64,000 nucleotides of DNA, taken from the IMG/VR virus record IMGVR_UViG_3300008262_000026; one strand, 5' to 3'. Of the stretch, positions 44 through 26,692 are shown in pieces. Every line of letters begins with the position of its first letter. Positions within the stretch are counted from its first letter, which is position 1. The DNA is from a virus. Its lineage: Duplodnaviria > Heunggongvirae > Uroviricota > Caudoviricetes. The notes beneath the pieces are model-generated. The model was not told the origin of the DNA and did not search any database. It was given only the letters and a program-made list of their open reading frames with translations. The position numbers and the translations under genes are program-made.

Positions 44-280
44 ATGAAAAACTACCCGATGAAGAAAATGACTGAACCAACAGACACAGAAATCCTTGAA
101 TTTCTACTCAATCAGTTCCAATCACATTCTCTTCAAATGAATGGTGAAAGTGATTGGAAATTTATGAGTAGTGGATTTCCTATGAATAGAGCAAAAGGAC
201 AAACCGCAAGAGATGCTGTGATTACTGCTATGAAAAAAGCAAAAGATAGTAAAGAATTCTATGAATGGTTAGAAGAATGA
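44..280 (+). CDS. hypothetical protein (paralog of 8620..8814)
   Basis: Plus-strand ORF. Shares DTEILEFLLNQF.SHSL...GFPMN.AKG.TARDAVI motif with 8620..8814. True start may be the internal ATGACTGAA. Confidence 0.5.
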   Translation: MKNYPMKKMTEPTDTEILEFLLNQFQSHSLQMNGESDWKFMSSGFPMNRAKGQTARDAVITAMKKAKDSKEFYEWLEE

Positions 281-1162: not shown

Positions 1163-1218
1163 ACACCTGAATAACTGTCACAAGGGCATCCCACAGGTGC
1201 CCTTTTTGGTCTATAATG
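1163..1218 (+). terminator. cassette A1: CACCTGAA-AACTG-CACAAGGGCA hairpin terminator + TATAAT (1212..1217)
   Basis: GC hairpin AAGGGCATCCCACAGGTGCCCTT plus T5, then TATAAT. Confidence 0.6.
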
Positions 1219-2878: not shown

Positions 2879-3063
2879 CTAAAACAGTAAAGTTCGTATC
2901 AGTCACTCGCACGATTGACCATAAGACACGGATTCATTATTTGGATGCCATTGATGAGGATGGTTTGCATTGGATGGCACAGATGGACCACAAGACAGAA
3001 CCTTTCCTGTGCTTCATTAGAGAATGGAGAAAAGACCCTCAACAACCGAAAATTTATGACTGA
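2875..3063 (+). CDS. hypothetical protein
   Basis: Plus-strand ORF, ATGA overlap. Confidence 0.45.
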   Translation: MTKTVKFVSVTRTIDHKTRIHYLDAIDEDGLHWMAQMDHKTEPFLCFIREWRKDPQQPKIYD

Positions 3064-3256
3064 ACCTGATTACAAAATTGAAGAGTTATTCAACACTAGA
3101 ATTCTGAAAGTTCAGTTCGTCATTTATGCTAGAACATACGATTCTTGGTCATTTGCTGTAGATGACAGATTTGATACTCTTGAGGAAGCAAAAGAAGTTG
3201 TTAGAATTCTGAGAAAATATAAAAAACGAGTATTTCATTATGTGGAGGAAGAATGA
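3056..3256 (+). CDS. hypothetical protein
   Basis: Start moved to ATGACTGAACC, the typical start form in this genome. Confidence 0.45.
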   Translation: MTEPDYKIEELFNTRILKVQFVIYARTYDSWSFAVDDRFDTLEEAKEVVRILRKYKKRVFHYVEEE

Positions 3257-3422
3257 CTGAAGAACAAAATGACAAAGAATAAGGTTGTATTTTATGGTGC
3301 TTGGGTAGTTTGGATTTCTTGTTGCCTATCTCCTGCACTTATTTTCGCATATCTTTTACATCAACAGTATGATTTAGATATAAAAATGTATGAATTGAGA
3401 ACAGAACTTATAGGAGTAAAAA

Positions 3423-3728
3423 ATGACTGACGACGAAATCCTTGAACTAGCAAAACTTGTTGGTGCTATGTGGATACATCTGCCACAACATGAAGAAAAC
3501 ATCAATCATCCAGAATTCGGAAGGCATACCTACATTTACGGAATAGCATACGAAAATGCACAGTATAATAAATGTGTTGCTGCTCTTCTCAAAGAACTTG
3601 TAAGGCAATACTCTACTTCTCTTCCACCAGATTCTGGTATGGATGAGTTTTATGCTAGAATGCATGGTGGAGAATCCGTGATATATGTTGATGATATTTT
3701 GAAAGTGATTAAGGAACTTGAAGGATGA
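3423..3728 (+). CDS. hypothetical protein
   Basis: Plus-strand ORF. Confidence 0.5.
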   Translation: MTDDEILELAKLVGAMWIHLPQHEENINHPEFGRHTYIYGIAYENAQYNKCVAALLKELVRQYSTSLPPDSGMDEFYARMHGGESVIYVDDILKVIKELEG

Positions 3729-3882
3729 ATAAGTATTCTGTGGTGCTTCATAGTGATGTAAGTGATTCTGATGTTTGGTTGAACTTTATTGTGAATACTC
3801 CCATGACACCAAAACAACTTGAAACTTATTATAAGTGTCAGAGTTTATCTATCAGTAAAGTAGATGTTGTGGAATTGAACCG

Positions 3883-4050
3883 ATGACTAAACCACATAAT
3901 GACCCTAAATTGATTAAAGAATTGAGGGAAAGAAGTGGTGCTGGACTTATGAATTGCAAGAAAGCACTATGCTCAACAAATGGAGATATGGAAGAAGCAA
4001 TTAAATGGTTAAATGAGCATCGCAGTTGGTGGGATGGTATTATTTACTGA
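3883..4050 (+). CDS. EF-Ts N-terminal (UBA-like, EF-Tu-binding) domain protein, 55 aa
   Basis: Not in the ORF track (<60 aa). [43 protein letters not shown] matches the EF-Ts N-terminal signature ([25 protein letters not shown]..L). Confidence 0.55.
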
Positions 4051-4057
4051 GGAAAAA

Positions 4058-4261
4058 ATGAATCAAAGAGCACAAAAAATCTGGAAAACCTTCTGTGATG
4101 AAGTAATTCGTCCACCATCAGAAGACCAAAAAGAAGCATTGGCATCAGCAATTCGTATGATTATAGATGAGTATGAAATTTTTATGGACAATGATAGTTT
4201 TGGTAATATGGTAGTAACTTCTAATGAACTTCGTATTCTTGCTGATGAGTTGGACAAATGA
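4058..4261 (+). CDS. hypothetical protein
   Basis: Start trimmed to MNQRAQ. The track's N-terminal extension overlaps the EF-Ts-like ORF. Confidence 0.45.
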   Translation: MNQRAQKIWKTFCDEVIRPPSEDQKEALASAIRMIIDEYEIFMDNDSFGNMVVTSNELRILADELDK

Positions 4262-4446
4262 GTTACCGTTGGATGACACATAAAGACCTTTCTGCTGCAA
4301 TAAGAGCACAGAATATCCTAAATTCAAGAGTAAAACGAGGGGAGATTGAACAACCAACAAAATATTCTTATGTTGTGTGTGGTTGTGGTGAAGAAGGTTG
4401 TGGATTTATTAGTTGTGTAAAAAATGAAAGTCAAAGAACTAATTGA
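4258..4446 (+). CDS. hypothetical protein
   Basis: Plus-strand ORF. Confidence 0.4.
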   Translation: MSYRWMTHKDLSAAIRAQNILNSRVKRGEIEQPTKYSYVVCGCGEEGCGFISCVKNESQRTN

Positions 4447-4660
4447 AGAACTACAAAAGTATCCAGAGGATATGGAAGTAGTTTTGCTTGGTGGTTGTGG
4501 TAGTTATGAACCATCAATAGAGGTAGAAAAAGTTACAGTAACGGTTTATCCAGAAGATATCAATGAAAAAGATGATTTTATGAAATCTTATTTTTCTAAA
4601 GATAGTGATGATTATTGGAGTTTTCGTAGAGTAGACGTGGATGTTATTGTGTTATGGTAA
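4424..4660 (+). CDS. hypothetical protein
   Basis: Plus-strand ORF. Confidence 0.45.
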   Translation: MKVKELIEELQKYPEDMEVVLLGGCGSYEPSIEVEKVTVTVYPEDINEKDDFMKSYFSKDSDDYWSFRRVDVDVIVLW

Positions 4661-4920
4661 TTATGAAACTCACAAGAATGATATTTGATTATTGGCGTTA
4701 TTGGATGTTATTTGATGATAGTGATGTAGAGTGGGTGAATATAAATGGAACAGAAGGTATTTGTTATTATGACGGGTATAATGCTACTTTCTGGTATTTG
4801 TTGAATATTTCATATTATCAAATGAATAACAAACTTTATGCCAAAACTGGATGTAAGGAACCTTATGAAGTTTTGAGTGATTTTGATGAGGACTACTTAT
4901 TGGAGAATGGTTATAAATGA
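4654..4920 (+). CDS. hypothetical protein
   Basis: Plus-strand ORF. Confidence 0.45.
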   Translation: MVIMKLTRMIFDYWRYWMLFDDSDVEWVNINGTEGICYYDGYNATFWYLLNISYYQMNNKLYAKTGCKEPYEVLSDFDEDYLLENGYK

Positions 4921-5147
4921 CCGAACTAACACCAGTGCAACAAGATTTATTAAATCTATTTCAACAAAAAGTTAAAAATTCTATTAAAGAAAGCAAAGTA
5001 GAGTATGACCCTACTACTTTTAGACCAATTAAAAAAATTGTATTAGAGATTGATTTGGAGTTTATGTGTGATAATTCTTTTTATATTTTAAAAGAAAAAT
5101 TATATGAAGTCGTTGGAAAAGTAATATGTGGGATTGAGACCACCTGA
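4917..5147 (+). CDS. hypothetical protein
   Basis: Plus-strand ORF followed by terminator cassette 5141..5196. Confidence 0.45.
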   Translation: MTELTPVQQDLLNLFQQKVKNSIKESKVEYDPTTFRPIKKIVLEIDLEFMCDNSFYILKEKLYEVVGKVICGIETT

Positions 5148-5196
5148 ACAACTGGCACAAGGGCACTGCAGAGGTGCCCTTTTTTGGTCTATAATG
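5141..5196 (+). terminator. cassette A2 (terminator + TATAAT 5190..5195)
   Basis: Same architecture. Confidence 0.6.
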
Positions 5197-6255: not shown

Positions 6256-6459
6256 GTGATGGATGATGGAACTTGGATTATTTTTCCACTGCTTTTATTT
6301 CAGTTTGCTTGGACTAGTATGTGGTATAATTATGGAAACTATAATGGAAATAAGGAATCTGTAGATAAGACAACTATTGAGTGTATAGAAAAACCTAATG
6401 TATGCAAAGACCGATACCAGTACATGAAACTTGGAGAAAAATTGGAGAAGAGTAAATGA
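6256..6459 (+). CDS. small single-TM protein (CxxP..CK..YQY.KL family, copy 1)
   Basis: TM helix plus IECIEKPNVCKDRYQYMKL motif shared with 6456..6647 and 7493..7741. Confidence 0.5.
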   Translation: MMDDGTWIIFPLLLFQFAWTSMWYNYGNYNGNKESVDKTTIECIEKPNVCKDRYQYMKLGEKLEKSK

Positions 6460-6647
6460 ATGATGATTATTGGTTTGGGCCCGTATTAGTATTGGCGACT
6501 ATGATTACATTTGGAATGTTTTTATTTGGTTCCAATCACGGATATAATGTAGGAAAAGTAGAAAAAATCAAATACTGTATTGAGAAGCCAGCAGAATGTA
6601 AGTTGGAGTATCAGTATTTGAAGTTAAAAGAGCAGCAAGATAAATAA
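6456..6647 (+). CDS. small single-TM protein (same family, copy 2)
   Basis: YCIEKPAECKLEYQYLKL. Tandem paralog of 6256..6459. Confidence 0.5.
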   Translation: MNDDYWFGPVLVLATMITFGMFLFGSNHGYNVGKVEKIKYCIEKPAECKLEYQYLKLKEQQDK

Positions 6648-7214: not shown

Positions 7215-7496
7215 TTGAAGAGGACATTGAAAATGACTGAAGATTATGATAACATCAAGAGAATTGCTGAGGAACTACGAACTTGTGCTTGTTCTTGGGA
7301 ACCAAATGCAAAACTTCTTGGTAATGTGAGTGCAAAAGATAGGGATAAGGAGTTATTGAGTATCAATAGTGGGTATGATGAACTGCGAACAGTTTATAAT
7401 GAACTCAAAAAAATCTTTGACAGTGGAATCCGAAGCACAGAAAGTTTTGAAAGTGCCAAAGATTATAACCACATTTATGCTCCTGGAACAAAATGA
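7215..7496 (+). CDS. hypothetical protein
   Basis: Plus-strand ORF. Confidence 0.45.
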   Translation: MKRTLKMTEDYDNIKRIAEELRTCACSWEPNAKLLGNVSAKDRDKELLSINSGYDELRTVYNELKKIFDSGIRSTESFESAKDYNHIYAPGTK

Positions 7497-7741
7497 ATAA
7501 AGACAACGAAGGACTTGCTGTTATTGGACTTGTTGTAGTATGTCTTTATGTTCCATTTTCATTAGTATTTTCTGCCATTGGAATCTATTATATGAATAAT
7601 GTGAATAGATTGATTGACCAAAAAACTGTAGATTACACTATCAATGAGTCCATCAAACTCTGTGTGGGGAATCCCAAGTGGTGTAAGAACAAGTATGAGG
7701 TGATTAAGTTTGATGAGGCACAGGAGAAGAAAGAACGATGA
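7493..7741 (+). CDS. small single-TM protein (same Cys-motif family, copy 3)
   Basis: TM helix plus GNPKWCKNKYEVIKF. Confidence 0.45.
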   Translation: MNKDNEGLAVIGLVVVCLYVPFSLVFSAIGIYYMNNVNRLIDQKTVDYTINESIKLCVGNPKWCKNKYEVIKFDEAQEKKER

Positions 7742-8377: not shown

Positions 8378-8623
8378 ATGACTAATCAACAACCCCCTGA
8401 TATTATTGAAATCGGTGGTGTAAAATACCAACGAGTGGAAGAACCAAAACCACCGACACTTTATGATACTTTTATTAAAGAGCACGGAGATTACCCAATG
8501 GGCAGGAAAGATGCTTGTGATATTGTAAGAGGTTGGTTGATTGACCACACCGTAATTGAAACTGAAGATGCCGAAAGGGTTACATTTACTATTCTAAAAG
8601 AACAACTACAAACACCAAAATGA
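8378..8623 (+). CDS. hypothetical protein
   Basis: Plus-strand ORF. Confidence 0.45.
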   Translation: MTNQQPPDIIEIGGVKYQRVEEPKPPTLYDTFIKEHGDYPMGRKDACDIVRGWLIDHTVIETEDAERVTFTILKEQLQTPK

Positions 8624-8814
8624 CTGAACAACCATCAGACACAGAAATCCTTGAATTTCTACTCAATCAATTCAAATCTCATTCTCTCAAGATGGATGGT
8701 GTGAGTGATTGGGTGTTTATCAACACTGGATTTCCTATGAATCACGCAAAAGGAAGAACCGCAAGAGATGCCGTAATTGCCGCAATGAGGAAGCAGAAGA
8801 AAAATGAATCCTAA
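8620..8814 (+). CDS. hypothetical protein (paralog of 44..280)
   Basis: See 44..280. Confidence 0.5.
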   Translation: MTEQPSDTEILEFLLNQFKSHSLKMDGVSDWVFINTGFPMNHAKGRTARDAVIAAMRKQKKNES

Positions 8815-25960: not shown

Positions 25961-26692
25961 ATGTTCCAATTCGCAGAAGTCGGTGGTGCAGTTCGGGATA
26001 AGTTCCTGGGACTGGATTCCAAAGACGTTGATTTTGTTGCTGTTCCTGAAAATGCTGATACCTTTCTGAATGCAGATGCCGCATTTATGTTTCTCTGCAC
26101 TCACCTGAAAGAACAGGGGTTCAAAGTATTTCTGGAAACTCCTGAATTCTTTACTGTTCGGGCACAAGTTCCTGATGGTCATCCACTGAAAGAACGCACT
26201 AATGTTGCTGATTTTGTGCTTGCCCGTAAGGATGGTCCCAGCAGTGATGGTCGCCGCCCTGACTTTGTTCTGCCCGGAACCCTGATGGATGACCTGCAGA
26301 GACGGGATTTTACCGTCAATGCGATGGCAATTCTGAATGGGGAACTGGTGGATCCATTCGGGGGCAGGAACGATCTGGAGGAGGGTCTGCTGCGGTTTGT
26401 GGGTGATCCTACCCAACGCATCGCAGAGGACGGTCTGAGGGTCATGAGGGCACTGAGGTTCTTTGTAACTAAAGGGTTTAATATGGATGCCGATACTTGG
26501 GATGCAATCAACAGTGATTTTGCTGCTGAAATGCTGACCAAAGTATCTGTAGATCGTATCCGTGAGGAACTGGAAAAAATGTTCTTTACGAATACTCTGT
26601 GGAGTCTGAAAGTTCTGGATGATTTGAATACCGAAGTTCGCAAGGCAATCTTCCGTGATGGCCTGCGTCTGATGCCCACTCTGAAAAAGTAA
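25961..26692 (+). CDS. nucleotidyltransferase, poly(A) polymerase/CCA-adding enzyme head-domain family
   Basis: GGAVRD...DVDF (GGxVRD plus DxD) signature of class II tRNA nucleotidyltransferases. Only 243 aa. Confidence 0.6.
   Translation: MFQFAEVGGAVRDKFLGLDSKDVDFVAVPENADTFLNADAAFMFLCTHLKEQGFKVFLETPEFFTVRAQVPDGHPLKERTNVADFVLARKDGPSSDGRRPDFVLPGTLMDDLQRRDFTVNAMAILNGELVDPFGGRNDLEEGLLRFVGDPTQRIAEDGLRVMRALRFFVTKGFNMDADTWDAINSDFAAEMLTKVSVDRIREELEKMFFTNTLWSLKVLDDLNTEVRKAIFRDGLRLMPTLKK

What the first reader, a model, noticed from the sequence alone, without database searches (positions are those of the whole stretch)
3883..4050. Phage-encoded mimic of the EF-Tu-binding N-terminal domain of EF-Ts
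A 55-aa ORF (absent from the ORF track) reads [45 protein letters not shown]. This reproduces the conserved EF-Ts N-terminal module ([31 protein letters not shown]). A free-standing EF-Ts N-domain could dock on host EF-Tu. EF-Tu is a known target of phage exclusion (Lit) and a subunit of RNA-phage replicases. A small modulator of EF-Tu would be a novel early function.
Basis: partly seen in the sequence, partly recalled or inferred. Interest (0 to 1): 0.65.

Follow-up and report, generated by a model that had tools for sequence, protein, structure and literature searches.

The report
Phage stand-alone EF-Ts N-terminal domain
A T4-like phage carries a conserved 55-residue gene that is just the EF-Tu-docking N-terminal domain of elongation factor Ts, without the catalytic part, so it probably binds the host's EF-Tu, although nobody has tested this.

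Summary
Window 3883-4050 (+) encodes the quoted 55-aa protein. Residues 8-46 are a real EF-Ts N-terminal (TS-N/UBA-like) domain: Pfam EF-Ts_N scores above its gathering threshold, TIGR00116 gives E 1.6e-13, E. coli EF-Ts in the PDB gives E 6.5e-9, and the AF2 model superposes on EF-Ts in EF-Tu:EF-Ts crystals at 0.4-0.9 A.

The protein ends where the linker to the EF-Ts core would begin, so it cannot be an exchange factor.

It is a real gene. It is start/stop-coupled in a small-gene operon of a divergent T4-like phage whose closest relatives are cyanomyoviruses, and its GC matches the phage. dN/dS is 0.13-0.27. About 12 protein clusters and 10 or more IMG/VR contigs share phage-specific N- and C-terminal motifs.

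The EF-Tu-binding hairpin residues (L11, R12, C22, K23, A25, L26 in E. coli numbering) are invariant in the phage family.

Ralstonia phage RSP15 and a 485-kb uncultured phage appear to have captured the same domain independently. Sinorhizobium phiM12-group phages already carry an annotated, uncharacterised 'elongation factor Ts-like protein' that is probably homologous.

EF-Tu docking is therefore well motivated but only inferred, and its consequence (shield, brake or adaptor) is open. I rate this a new member of an annotated but unstudied family, of moderate interest.

The parts
3883..4050 (+). 55-aa gene: a stand-alone EF-Ts N-terminal-domain protein (stop codon included)
   Evidence: ORF list and sequence. 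Pfam, NCBIfam and PDB hits. dN/dS is 0.13-0.27 against homologues. GC 36.3% and GC3 29% match neighbouring phage genes.
3883..3906 (+). Phage-specific N-terminal motif M-T-K/E-P-H-x-D-P (residues 1-8). It replaces the 'MAEITA' start of bacterial EF-Ts.
   Evidence: P4 and H5 are invariant and D7 and P8 nearly invariant in 16 family members. The motif is absent from the best 80 bacterial genome matches kept (of 587 confirmed), which cover only residues about 3-54 and mostly 7-46. A related 'EP..D' start occurs in phiN3 gp159.
3904..4020 (+). TS-N/UBA-like three-helix domain (residues 8-46; helices 8-18, 22-31, 36-45). [quoted passage not shown]
   Evidence: AF2 models. Foldseek PDB matches to the EF-Ts N-domain. 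Invariant L14, R15, C25, K26, A28, L29 and G34.
4018..4047 (+). Aromatic C-terminal tail [12 protein letters not shown] (from residue 44). It replaces the EF-Ts linker to the core domain.
   Evidence: The family diverges from EF-Ts at R41->N and at G44. The tail is semi-conserved as NEH-x-S-(W/S)-(W/Y)-(D/H). It is modelled as a short helix 47-51 at low confidence, pLDDT about 56.
3883..3886 (+). ATGA start/stop overlap with the upstream 53-aa ORF (3725-3886), suggesting translational coupling
   Evidence: Read directly from the sequence.
3873..4085 (.). DNA block 90-100% identical to IMG/VR contig L001, with flanks that fall to 60% or less. The gene behaves as a sharply bounded mosaic cassette.
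   Evidence: Alignment A1 and sliding identity.
4058..4261 (+). Downstream 67-aa gene (MNQRAQKI...) with a GAGGA Shine-Dalgarno at 4049-4053. It is adjacent to the EF-Ts-N gene in both the window and L001.
   Evidence: No Pfam or PHROG hit.
3423..3728 (+). 101-aa gene whose homologue lies immediately downstream of the EF-Ts-N gene in the sister clade (L011-L018). It is a conserved near neighbour.
   Evidence: tblastn 63% identity. L014 gene order. No family hit.
4424..4660 (+). 78-aa gene, the third member of the locally conserved trio. Its N-terminus is fused to the EF-Ts-N tail in the metagenomic chimera P0002.
1182..1214 (+). Intrinsic-terminator-like hairpin AAGGGCA...TGCCCTT plus T-run, at the upstream boundary of the small-gene transcription unit
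5159..5191 (+). Near-identical terminator-like hairpin plus T-run, at the downstream boundary of the unit that contains the gene

Best explanation
The gene encodes a miniaturised, phage-adapted copy of the N-terminal TS-N/UBA-like domain of elongation factor Ts. An ancestor of this T4-like lineage captured it from a bacterial tsf gene, and it has been kept under purifying selection since. It lacks the whole EF-Ts core, including the Asp80/Phe81 wedge that expels GDP, so it cannot catalyse nucleotide exchange.

The most likely mechanism is that its conserved helix1-loop-helix2 hairpin docks on helix D of the G-domain of host EF-Tu. That is the site used by the EF-Ts N-domain and by the L7/L12 C-terminal domain. 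The protein would then act as a non-catalytic EF-Tu ligand.

Occupying helix D could have three consequences:
(a) it could shield EF-Tu from host effectors that anchor there;
(b) it could compete with EF-Ts and L7/L12 and so tune the EF-Tu cycle;
(c) through the phage-specific PHxDP N-terminus and aromatic tail, it could tether EF-Tu to another partner.

Shown here: homology, fold, gene reality, selection, family distribution and retention of the hairpin residues. Inferred: EF-Tu binding, its consequence, and early expression.
For: Homology and fold:
- Pfam EF-Ts_N above gathering score; TIGR00116 E 1.6e-13 on the N-terminus only; PDB EF-Ts E 6.5e-9.
- The AF2 three-helix model superposes on EF-Ts bound to EF-Tu at 0.4-0.9 A.

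No catalytic part:
- The protein ends at residue 55. There is no PF00889 hit, and the score is 50.5 bits against the 104-bit full-length cut-off.

A real, selected gene:
- ATGA coupling and phage-like GC and GC3.
- dN/dS is 0.19 with dS about 1.0 against the L011 clade, 0.13 for L001 against L011, and 0.27 against L001.
- About 12 clusters at 90% identity and 10 IMG/VR loci, on contigs up to 122 kb, encode 49-80-aa versions.
- It is kept in distant relatives that share few other small genes.

Hairpin retention:
- EF-Ts positions L11, R12, C22, K23, A25, L26 and G31 are invariant in 16/16 phage members, and K24 in 15/16.
- Divergence starts only at R41/G44, where the EF-Ts linker begins.

The hairpin is the documented EF-Tu-binding element shared with L7/L12, and helix D is the docking site (PMC4739770; PMC9825190; PMC5574714).

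Precedent for protection by helix-D occupancy: EF-Ts blocks ADP-ribosylation of EF-Tu by the helix-D-anchored Rhs toxin Tre-Tu (PMC9825190).

EF-Tu is a recurrent battleground in phage defence: Lit, type IV Thoeris and Avs7 (PMC13581612).

Apparently independent N-domain-only captures occur in Ralstonia phage RSP15 and in a 485-kb uncultured phage. Each is closer to bacterial EF-Ts than to this family.

EF-Ts_N modules are fused to polymorphic-toxin immunity domains (Imm11 + SUKH) in protein P0029.
Against: - No interaction was tested or modelled. The tools do not allow a co-fold.
- The affinity of an isolated EF-Ts N-domain for EF-Tu is unknown to me. In E. coli the N-domain acts together with the core and the C-terminal module.
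- EF-Tu is extremely abundant, so stoichiometric titration by a small phage protein would be costly.
- Some family members weaken the TGAG loop (P0030 TNAS, P0160 TDAP). The probable phiM12-group homologues have a degenerate signature (VPGWGTMEYRYAL), so the shared function may not need canonical EF-Tu contacts.
- Conservation of the hairpin could partly reflect fold stability.
- The bacterial comparison set was selected by a pattern covering positions 17-25, which inflates bacterial conservation there.
- There are no hits to known defence or anti-defence models.
- The host is not identified. The closest bacterial N-domains are 53-71% identical over the matched segment, across many phyla (one outlier, L048, is 45%).
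Confidence: 0.5

Rival explanations
1. The protein is a generic UBA-like protein-interaction module that has been repurposed. It derives from EF-Ts but now binds a different phage or host partner, not EF-Tu.
For: - Family-specific invariant residues lie outside the EF-Ts part: P4 and H5 are invariant, D7 and P8 nearly so, and there is an aromatic tail.
- The probable phiM12-group homologues have lost most of the [12 protein letters not shown] signature yet are conserved in four phages.
- Weak cross-hits to UBA_7, UBA and NAC show that the fold is a general interaction scaffold.
- The homologues of window 3423 and 4424 stay within about 1.2 kb of the gene in two clades, so they could be partners.
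Against: - In the window's own family the surface-type hairpin residues R12, K23 and K24 (EF-Ts numbering) are as invariant as in bona fide EF-Ts. Changing partner would not be expected to preserve this.
- Identity to E. coli EF-Ts is still 55-59% over the domain.
- Independent phage lineages captured this same domain.
Confidence: 0.27
2. The protein is a translation booster. It acts as a trans-acting piece of EF-Ts that accelerates EF-Tu recycling, as was proposed for other phage EF-Ts-like genes.
For: This hypothesis was put forward for Colossus gp247 and for Ceduovirus gp21 (PMC3556154; PMC7150918). The phage also invests in translation and RNA upkeep: a CCA-adding enzyme and a PHROG 'RNA-binding protein' (phrog_850) gene.
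Against: The catalytic core (PF00889, Asp80/Phe81) is entirely absent. On established EF-Ts mechanism, an isolated N-domain has no means of expelling GDP and should compete with host EF-Ts.
Confidence: 0.05
3. The protein is a free L7/L12-CTD-like decoy. It competes with the ribosomal stalk for translational GTPases in general (EF-Tu, EF-G, IF2, RF3) and so remodels translation.
For: - EF-Ts-N and L7/L12 CTD share the hairpin motif (PMC4739770).
- There are weak L12 hits: Pfam PF00542 E 0.095 and TIGR00855 E 0.015 for P0007.
- hhalign aligns residues 8-32 to L7/L12 residues 67-91.
- JGI auto-named one member 'ribosomal protein L7/L12'.
Against: All the L12 similarities are sub-threshold (hhalign probability 5%). 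The sequence is far closer to EF-Ts. A global block of factor recruitment would also hurt phage translation.
Confidence: 0.08
4. The ORF is a non-functional remnant of captured host DNA, a spurious ORF, or assembly contamination.
For: It is very short, has no detectable strong Shine-Dalgarno of its own, and was absent from the first-stage ORF track.
Against: - Purifying selection: dN/dS 0.13-0.27 at dS about 1.
- Length and both termini are conserved across about 12 clusters and 10 or more viral contigs.
- Composition is phage-like and the start is translationally coupled.
- There is no rpsB-tsf context, unlike true bacterial or contaminant hits.
Confidence: 0.03

Closest known systems
N-terminal TS-N/UBA-like domain of bacterial elongation factor Ts (E. 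coli EF-Ts residues 1-54; PDB 1EFU, 4PC1-7)
   Same: The three-helix fold is the same (RMSD 0.4-0.9 A) at 55-59% identity. The signature LR..(T/S)GAG..(D/N)CKKAL is retained, including R12 and K23 (E. coli numbering).
   Different: It stands alone at 55 aa, with no linker, no core (PF00889), no coiled-coil and no C-terminal module. It therefore has no GEF activity. It has new N-terminal (PHxDP) and C-terminal (aromatic) motifs. It is phage-encoded and not next to rpsB.
'Elongation factor Ts-like protein' of Sinorhizobium T4-superfamily phages phiM12, phiM7, phiM19 and phiN3 (phiN3 gp159, AKF13426.1, 59 aa)
   Same: It is a small stand-alone protein of the same size and fold in a T4-superfamily phage. 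hhalign against the family profile gives probability 84.6%, E 6.9e-6 and 38% identity over 42 columns, including the N-terminal EP..D motif. It has a hydrophobic C-terminal tail (NGFLVIF against DGIIY) and lies in a small-gene region.
   Different: The EF-Ts signature is degenerate (VPGWGTMEYRYAL). It is undetectable by tblastn from the window protein. It lies next to phage tRNA genes. It exists only as an annotation, and I found no functional study in the searchable library.
Caulobacter phage Colossus gp247 (truncated EF-Ts, 98 aa)
   Same: It is a phage-encoded fragment of EF-Ts that has been discussed as a possible translation modulator (PMC3556154).
   Different: It corresponds to subdomain N of the core, with the catalytic Phe81, not to the N-terminal domain. 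It is the complementary piece of EF-Ts.
Lactococcus Ceduovirus gp21 (EF-Ts domain-like fold)
   Same: It is an early-region phage gene with EF-Ts similarity and a hypothesised role in translation (PMC7150918).
   Different: Its similarity is to the C-terminal, dimerisation part of EF-Ts.
C-terminal domain of ribosomal protein L7/L12 (helices 4-5)
   Same: [quoted passage not shown]
   Different: Sequence similarity is only sub-threshold. The overall fold and the ribosomal context differ.
Independent stand-alone EF-Ts-N ORFs: Ralstonia phage RSP15 (unannotated 70-aa ORF, LC121084 110782-110994) and uncultured 485-kb phage LR745208 (105-aa ORF)
   Same: Each is an N-domain-only derivative of EF-Ts in a phage genome. 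TIGR00116 N-terminal hit, E 7.4e-10, for RSP15.
   Different: They are only 35-45% identical to the window protein and are closer to bacterial EF-Ts (53-68%). They have different extensions: a CPHC-containing tail in RSP15 and an N-terminal coiled-coil-like segment in LR745208. They are probably separate captures.
EF-Ts_N-Imm11-SUKH fusion proteins (P0029 and relatives)
   Same: They use EF-Ts-N-like modules outside EF-Ts, in a conflict-system (immunity protein) context.
   Different: They carry two tandem modules fused to immunity domains in a 488-aa protein from an unclassified 3.8-kb metagenome contig. They were not studied further here.

Membership tests
Elongation factor Ts (TIGR00116 / PF00889, EF-Tu guanine-nucleotide exchange factor) | N-terminal TS-N domain with the conserved signature | tested here: met
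   TIGR00116 positions 6-44, E 1.6e-13. PF25025 scores 34.1 bits against a cut-off of 33.2.
Elongation factor Ts (TIGR00116 / PF00889, EF-Tu guanine-nucleotide exchange factor) | Core domain (PF00889) carrying the catalytic Asp80/Phe81 wedge | tested here: not met
   The protein stops at residue 55 and has no PF00889 hit.
Elongation factor Ts (TIGR00116 / PF00889, EF-Tu guanine-nucleotide exchange factor) | Whole-protein score at or above the equivalog cut-off (104 bits) | tested here: not met
   50.5 bits.
Elongation factor Ts (TIGR00116 / PF00889, EF-Tu guanine-nucleotide exchange factor) | rpsB-tsf gene neighbourhood typical of bacteria | tested here: not met
   The neighbours are small phage ORFs with no family hits. 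Compare L002, where full-length tsf follows rpsB.
EF-Ts_N / TS-N UBA-like domain (PF25025) | Profile score above the gathering threshold | tested here: met
   34.1 bits against 33.2, E 2.7e-8.
EF-Ts_N / TS-N UBA-like domain (PF25025) | Compact three-helix bundle that superposes on solved EF-Ts N-domains | tested here: met
   AF2 pLDDT 82. Foldseek top hits are 4pc3_C, 1efu_B, 2cp9 and others, RMSD 0.4-1.7 A.
EF-Ts_N / TS-N UBA-like domain (PF25025) | Binds EF-Tu G-domain helix D | not testable with these tools
   Only residue retention could be examined.
Phage stand-alone EF-Ts-N family (window, P0001, P0007, P0030, P0152-P0160, IMG/VR L010-L019) | 49-80 aa, an N-terminal M-(T/N)-(K/E)-P-H-x-D-P motif, the TS-N domain, and a NEH/aromatic tail | tested here: met
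   Alignments A3, A4 and A5. 45-93% identity to members.
Phage stand-alone EF-Ts-N family (window, P0001, P0007, P0030, P0152-P0160, IMG/VR L010-L019) | Located in small-gene arrays of T4-like phage contigs | tested here: met
phiM12-group 'elongation factor Ts-like protein' | Detectable homology to phiN3 gp159 | tested here: inconclusive
   hhalign probability 84.6%, E 6.9e-6. Foldseek TM 0.61 at 32% identity. No tblastn hit.
Canonical UBA domain (PF00627, ubiquitin-associated) | Profile score above the gathering threshold | tested here: not met
   14.2 bits against 22.4. UBA_7 scores 25.2 against 27.
Ribosomal protein L7/L12 C-terminal domain (PF00542) | Profile score above the gathering threshold | tested here: not met
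   13.5 bits against 25.9. hhalign probability 5%.
Known anti-phage defence components (PADLOC-DB) | Any model hit | tested here: not met
   No family at E<=0.01 for the window protein or for P0007.

The most novel reading that the evidence does not exclude
The protein is a phage counter-defence factor of a new type, an 'EF-Tu helix-D cap'. By occupying the EF-Ts/L7-L12 docking helix on a fraction of host EF-Tu, it would protect EF-Tu from, or deny it to, host abortive-infection or toxin systems. Candidates are those that anchor on helix D, or that need the EF-Tu:EF-Ts scaffold: Tre-Tu-like ADP-ribosyltransferases and CdiA-CT(EC869)-like tRNases that cut tRNA 3' ends. In a related phage the gene sits two genes from a CCA-adding tRNA repair enzyme. 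EF-Ts-N modules fused to Imm11/SUKH immunity domains would be the bacterial counterpart of the same trick.
Probability: 0.15. Interest if true: 0.75.

Novelty: new member of a known kind. Interest (0 to 1): 0.47.

Why it matters
EF-Tu is the most abundant translation factor. It is a recurring target or cofactor in phage-host conflict: Lit and type IV Thoeris cleave it, Avs7 recruits it, several toxins modify or exploit it, and RNA phages use it as a replicase subunit. No DNA-phage protein is known to address EF-Tu through the EF-Ts/L7-L12 docking site.

This study adds three things:
- A conserved family of 50-60-residue proteins that consist of only that docking module.
- At least two further phage lineages with apparently independent captures of the same module.
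- A probable cultured-phage homologue in the phiM12 group, which infects the genetically tractable S. meliloti.

Together these make the question directly testable with simple biochemistry and genetics.

If binding is confirmed, the protein would be a natural minimal EF-Tu ligand. It would be useful as a probe of the EF-Tu cycle and could reveal a new host-takeover or anti-defence strategy. If binding fails, the protein is one more small UBA-like phage protein of unknown role.

Tried and rejected
- Megablast of window 3000-5000 against GenBank phages found no match. The genome is not a sequenced isolate.
- tblastn of the protein against 50,697 phage records, even at E<=10, found no homologue in cultured cyanophages. 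Most 'phage' hits were full-length bacterial tsf in contaminated or unverified records (for example L002 and L103). Only RSP15 and LR745208 are genuinely N-domain-only.
- I looked for a donor or host through 185,579 species genomes. The 80 best hits kept were ordinary EF-Ts N-domains, 53-71% identical (one at 45%), from many phyla. None had the phage N-terminal motif, so no donor can be named.
- PADLOC gave nothing. PHROGs gave only a weak hit to an unknown family, phrog_35727, E 0.0015.
- Sigma-70-like promoter sites are not enriched (32 found against 35 expected), so early timing cannot be supported that way.
- Neighbouring genes have no Pfam or PHROG hits.
- The similarity to L7/L12 CTD is real as a motif but statistically weak.
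- A metal-site idea (H5/C25/H46) was dropped because H46 and the second Cys are not conserved.
- Many short proteins among the top 150 representatives are frameshifted or truncated fragments of bacterial EF-Ts, not free-standing domains, so they were not counted.
- I could not retrieve the primary EF-Ts mutagenesis paper. Statements about individual contact residues (R12, M19, M20, K23) rest on my recollection of Kawashima et al. 1996 and Zhang et al. 1998.
- Co-folding with EF-Tu is not possible with the structure tool's input restrictions.
Full report
**1. Observation**

Window 3883-4050 on the + strand is an ATG-to-TGA ORF of 55 codons. It encodes [55 protein letters not shown]. Its ATG overlaps the TGA of the upstream 53-aa ORF (ATGA, 3883-3886). 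The next gene starts at 4058 behind a GAGGA box. This tight, co-directional packing of small genes is typical of phage operons.

The resemblance to EF-Ts is statistically solid:
- Pfam EF-Ts_N (PF25025) scores 34.1 bits, above the curated 33.2, with E 2.7e-8. UBA_7, UBA and Ribosomal_L12_C appear only below threshold.
- NCBIfam TIGR00116 (tsf) gives E 1.6e-13 but covers only profile positions 6-44 of 293. The 50.5 bits fall short of the 104-bit cut-off for a whole EF-Ts.
- phmmer against PDB sequences gives E. coli EF-Ts (1efu_B) at E 6.5e-9, aligning residues 9-43 with EF-Ts 6-40.
- AlphaFold2 predicts a three-helix bundle (helices 8-18, 22-31, 36-45, then a short low-confidence helix 47-51). 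Mean pLDDT is 82, both from the single sequence and from a 12-sequence family alignment.
- The best Foldseek matches in the PDB are the EF-Ts N-domain inside EF-Tu:EF-Ts complexes and Q-beta replicase. RMSD is 0.4-0.9 A over 37-40 residues at 55-59% identity. Generic UBA and NAC domains follow at much weaker scores.

**2. What the window is**

The 64-kb window is phage DNA of T4-like myovirus type. It encodes a gp6 baseplate wedge, a helicase, primase pieces, DNA methyltransferases, a CCA-adding tRNA nucleotidyltransferase and a gene matching the PHROG family 'RNA-binding protein' (phrog_850).

The gp6 protein is 58-61% identical to gp6 of Synechococcus and Prochlorococcus myoviruses. No GenBank phage matches at the DNA level. 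The phage is therefore an uncultured, divergent T4-like phage whose closest relatives are cyanomyoviruses, and its host is not established.

The first 20 kb or so is an array of tiny + strand genes. Two near-identical hairpin-plus-T-run terminators, at 1182-1204 and 5159-5181, bracket the unit that holds the ORF. Sigma-70-like sites are not enriched, so early expression is an inference from position only.

**3. It is a real gene under selection, and it defines a family**

An exhaustive phmmer search of 1.84 billion representatives was followed by a profile search of 5.8 billion proteins. Together they recovered about 12 clusters of 49-80-aa proteins (P0001, P0007, P0030, P0152-P0160). All start M-(T/N)-(K/E)[12 protein letters not shown] and end with a NEH/aromatic tail.

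IMG/VR holds 10 loci, on contigs up to 122 kb. Most encode a 53-aa version.

These contigs are relatives of the window phage that share many of its small genes in shuffled order. More distant 90-114-kb contigs share little else in the region shown, apart from this gene and the CCA-adding enzyme.

Nei-Gojobori dN/dS over the first 50 codons is as follows:
- 0.27 against L001 (3 synonymous and 4 non-synonymous differences)
- 0.19 against the L011 clade (dS about 1.05, dN 0.20)
- 0.13 for L001 against L011

GC (36.3%) and GC3 (29%) match the neighbouring phage genes. Recent host capture and contamination are therefore both excluded.

Between the window and L001 the gene sits in a block of about 210 bp (3873-4085) that is 90-100% identical. 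The flanks drop to 60% or less, and the upstream gene differs altogether. The gene evidently moves as a discrete mosaic cassette.

**4. What is kept and what is lost relative to EF-Ts**

I aligned 16 family members with 80 bacterial EF-Ts N-domains. The bacterial set was retrieved by a pattern over positions 17-25, so bacterial conservation there is inflated.

Retention in the phage family, in E. coli numbering:
- L11, R12, C22, K23, A25, L26 and G31: 16/16
- K24: 15/16
- T/S15: 16/16
- G16, A17 and G18: 14/16

Helix 3 is freer. The family departs from EF-Ts at R41 (to N) and G44, which is exactly where the linker to the core domain would start.

Nothing corresponding to the core (PF00889), the Asp80/Phe81 wedge, the coiled coil or the C-terminal module exists. 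The protein therefore fails the membership test for EF-Ts as an exchange factor and passes the test for the EF-Ts_N domain.

[quoted passage not shown] 2001, as cited in PMC4739770). Helix D of EF-Tu (residues 144-156) is the contact site for both EF-Ts and L7/L12 (PMC9825190; PMC5574714). My recollection, which I could not verify here, is that R12, M19, M20 and K23 are N-domain residues at or near this interface (Kawashima et al. 1996; Zhang et al. 1998). I treat that as a lead.

**5. Mechanism**

The best-supported reading is a non-catalytic EF-Tu ligand that docks on helix D. Three downstream consequences are possible, and the evidence does not separate them.

(a) Shielding. EF-Ts itself protects EF-Tu from the Rhs ADP-ribosyltransferase Tre-Tu, which anchors on helix D (PMC9825190). 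EF-Tu is also cleaved by Lit and by type IV Thoeris, and is recruited in its GDP form by Avs7 (PMC13581612). In addition, the Tu:GTP:Ts complex is the scaffold for a tRNase toxin that cuts tRNA 3' ends (PMC9071432).

(b) Competition with EF-Ts and the L7/L12 stalk, which would damp the EF-Tu cycle.

(c) Tethering of EF-Tu to another partner through the phage-specific termini.

Three circumstantial observations support a role in conflict:
- EF-Ts_N-like modules occur fused to Imm11 and SUKH immunity domains (P0029). They also occur as triple repeats ahead of a sequence that looks like the start of a TIR domain (P0031, by eye only; Pfam reported only UBA/EF-Ts_N-type matches).
- In L101 and L102 the gene lies two genes downstream of the CCA-adding enzyme.
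- Ralstonia phage RSP15 (an unannotated 70-aa ORF) and a 485-kb uncultured phage (a 105-aa ORF) each carry an N-domain-only derivative that is closer to bacterial EF-Ts than to this family. This implies repeated capture of just this module.

Caveats:
- No binding was tested.
- The affinity of an isolated N-domain for EF-Tu is unknown.
- EF-Tu is very abundant.
- Some members, and the phiM12-group proteins, have a degraded signature.

I put EF-Tu binding at about 0.5. The alternatives are a repurposed UBA-like module at about 0.27, an L7/L12-type decoy at about 0.08, a translation booster at about 0.05 and junk at about 0.03.

**6. Comparison with what is known**

The closest annotated relatives are the 59-aa 'elongation factor Ts-like protein' genes of Sinorhizobium phages phiM12, phiM7, phiM19 and phiN3, which belong to the T4 superfamily. 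I found them through BFVD, located phiN3 gp159 at KR052482 96279-96458 next to phage tRNA genes, and read its sequence.

hhalign against the family profile gives probability 84.6%, E 6.9e-6 and 38% identity over 42 columns, including the N-terminal EP..D motif. tblastn does not connect the two.

JGI's pipeline already labels members of the window's family 'translation elongation factor EF-Ts' or 'ribosomal protein L7/L12'.

Published discussion exists only for other pieces of EF-Ts:
- Colossus gp247, the core subdomain N with Phe81 (PMC3556154).
- Ceduovirus gp21, which resembles the C-terminal part (PMC7150918).

Both were proposed to boost translation, and neither was tested. Full-text searches found no paper on a stand-alone EF-Ts N-domain in phages or cyanophages. 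The phiM12 genome paper is not in the searchable library.

**7. Verdict**

Homology to the EF-Tu-binding domain is proven. 'Mimic' is really 'captured homologue'. EF-Tu docking is plausible but untested, and the claim of novelty must be tempered by existing annotations.

It is a new and unusually well-preserved member of an annotated but functionally unstudied family of phage stand-alone EF-Ts-N proteins. Interest is moderate (0.47). It would rise considerably if the protein proves to be an EF-Tu-directed takeover or anti-defence factor.

Noticed in passing
P0029 (488 aa; locus L100 875-2341), P0024, P0031, P0011: EF-Ts_N-like modules occur outside EF-Ts. P0029 has two of them followed by Imm11 and SMI1/KNR4 (SUKH) immunity domains. 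P0031 has three followed by a sequence that looks by eye like the start of a TIR domain (HVFISHS, not confirmed by Pfam). P0011 has three at its C-terminus. This suggests the module is reused in conflict systems.
   Followed up: partly
L003 2447-2659 (Ralstonia phage RSP15, LC121084 110782-110994): An unannotated 70-aa ORF encodes an EF-Ts N-domain (TIGR00116 E 7.4e-10) with a CPHC-containing tail. It lies in the gap between ORF136 and ORF137. It has no homologue in other GenBank phages.
   Followed up: partly
L004 2309-2626 (uncultured 485-kb phage LR745208): A 105-aa ORF has a coiled-coil-like N-terminus and a C-terminal EF-Ts-N-like domain. It is another stand-alone derivative, in a huge phage.
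   Followed up: no
L107 36279-36458 (Sinorhizobium phage phiN3 gp159) and phiM12/phiM7/phiM19: The annotated 'elongation factor Ts-like protein' lies immediately upstream of phage tRNA-Asn and tRNA-Met genes. These genomes also carry a tRNA nucleotidyltransferase, peptidyl-tRNA hydrolases and a RelA/SpoT protein.
   Followed up: partly
L101 8681-10243 and L102 (90-114-kb metagenome contigs): In distant relatives the EF-Ts-N gene (P0154) lies two genes downstream of a CCA-adding tRNA nucleotidyltransferase that is 59% identical to window 25961-26692. In the window the two genes are 22 kb apart.
   Followed up: partly
P0002 (36 aa, JGI contig of 2,644 bp): This is a chimeric protein. It joins the N-terminus of the window 4424-4660 ORF (MKVKELIEELQKYPEDME) to the last 21 residues of the EF-Ts-N protein ([21 protein letters not shown]). 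It looks like a recombination product at a short DME/GAAGATATGGA microhomology.
   Followed up: no
window 1182-1204 and 5159-5181: Two near-identical terminator-like hairpins (AAGGGCAYYSCASAGGTGCCCTT followed by a T-run) are repeated 4 kb apart. They look like a reused regulatory cassette bounding a small-gene operon.
   Followed up: no
window 44-280 and 8620-8814: These are paralogous small genes (…TDTEILEFLLNQF(Q/K)SHSL(Q/K)M(N/D)G(E/V)SDW…), duplicated 8.5 kb apart. Homologues are present in L016.
   Followed up: no
window 6256-6459, 6456-6647, 7493-7741: Three small predicted membrane proteins share a C-terminal C-x-E/G-K/N-P-x-x-C-K-x-x-Y-x-Y/V-x-K-L/F motif. They form a local paralogous family of unknown role.
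   Followed up: no
window 3423-3728, 3883-4050, 4424-4660 against L014 4001-4638: The EF-Ts-N gene and the homologues of the 101-aa and 78-aa ORFs stay within about 1.2 kb in two clades, despite shuffling of the surrounding genes. This may be a functional trio.
   Followed up: partly
GenBank 'phage' records AFYI01000001, OR844988, OQ572403, CAKLQF020000002, MT835604 and others: Several records in the phage collection carry bacterial EF-Ts sequence. Three are annotated tsf or elongation factor Ts (AFYI01000001, CAKLQH020000036, CAKLQF020000002), and I confirmed a full-length 309-aa tsf in MT835604 (L103). The rest are unannotated and I did not open them. These records look like bacterial or contaminated sequence rather than phage-encoded EF-Ts.
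   Followed up: partly
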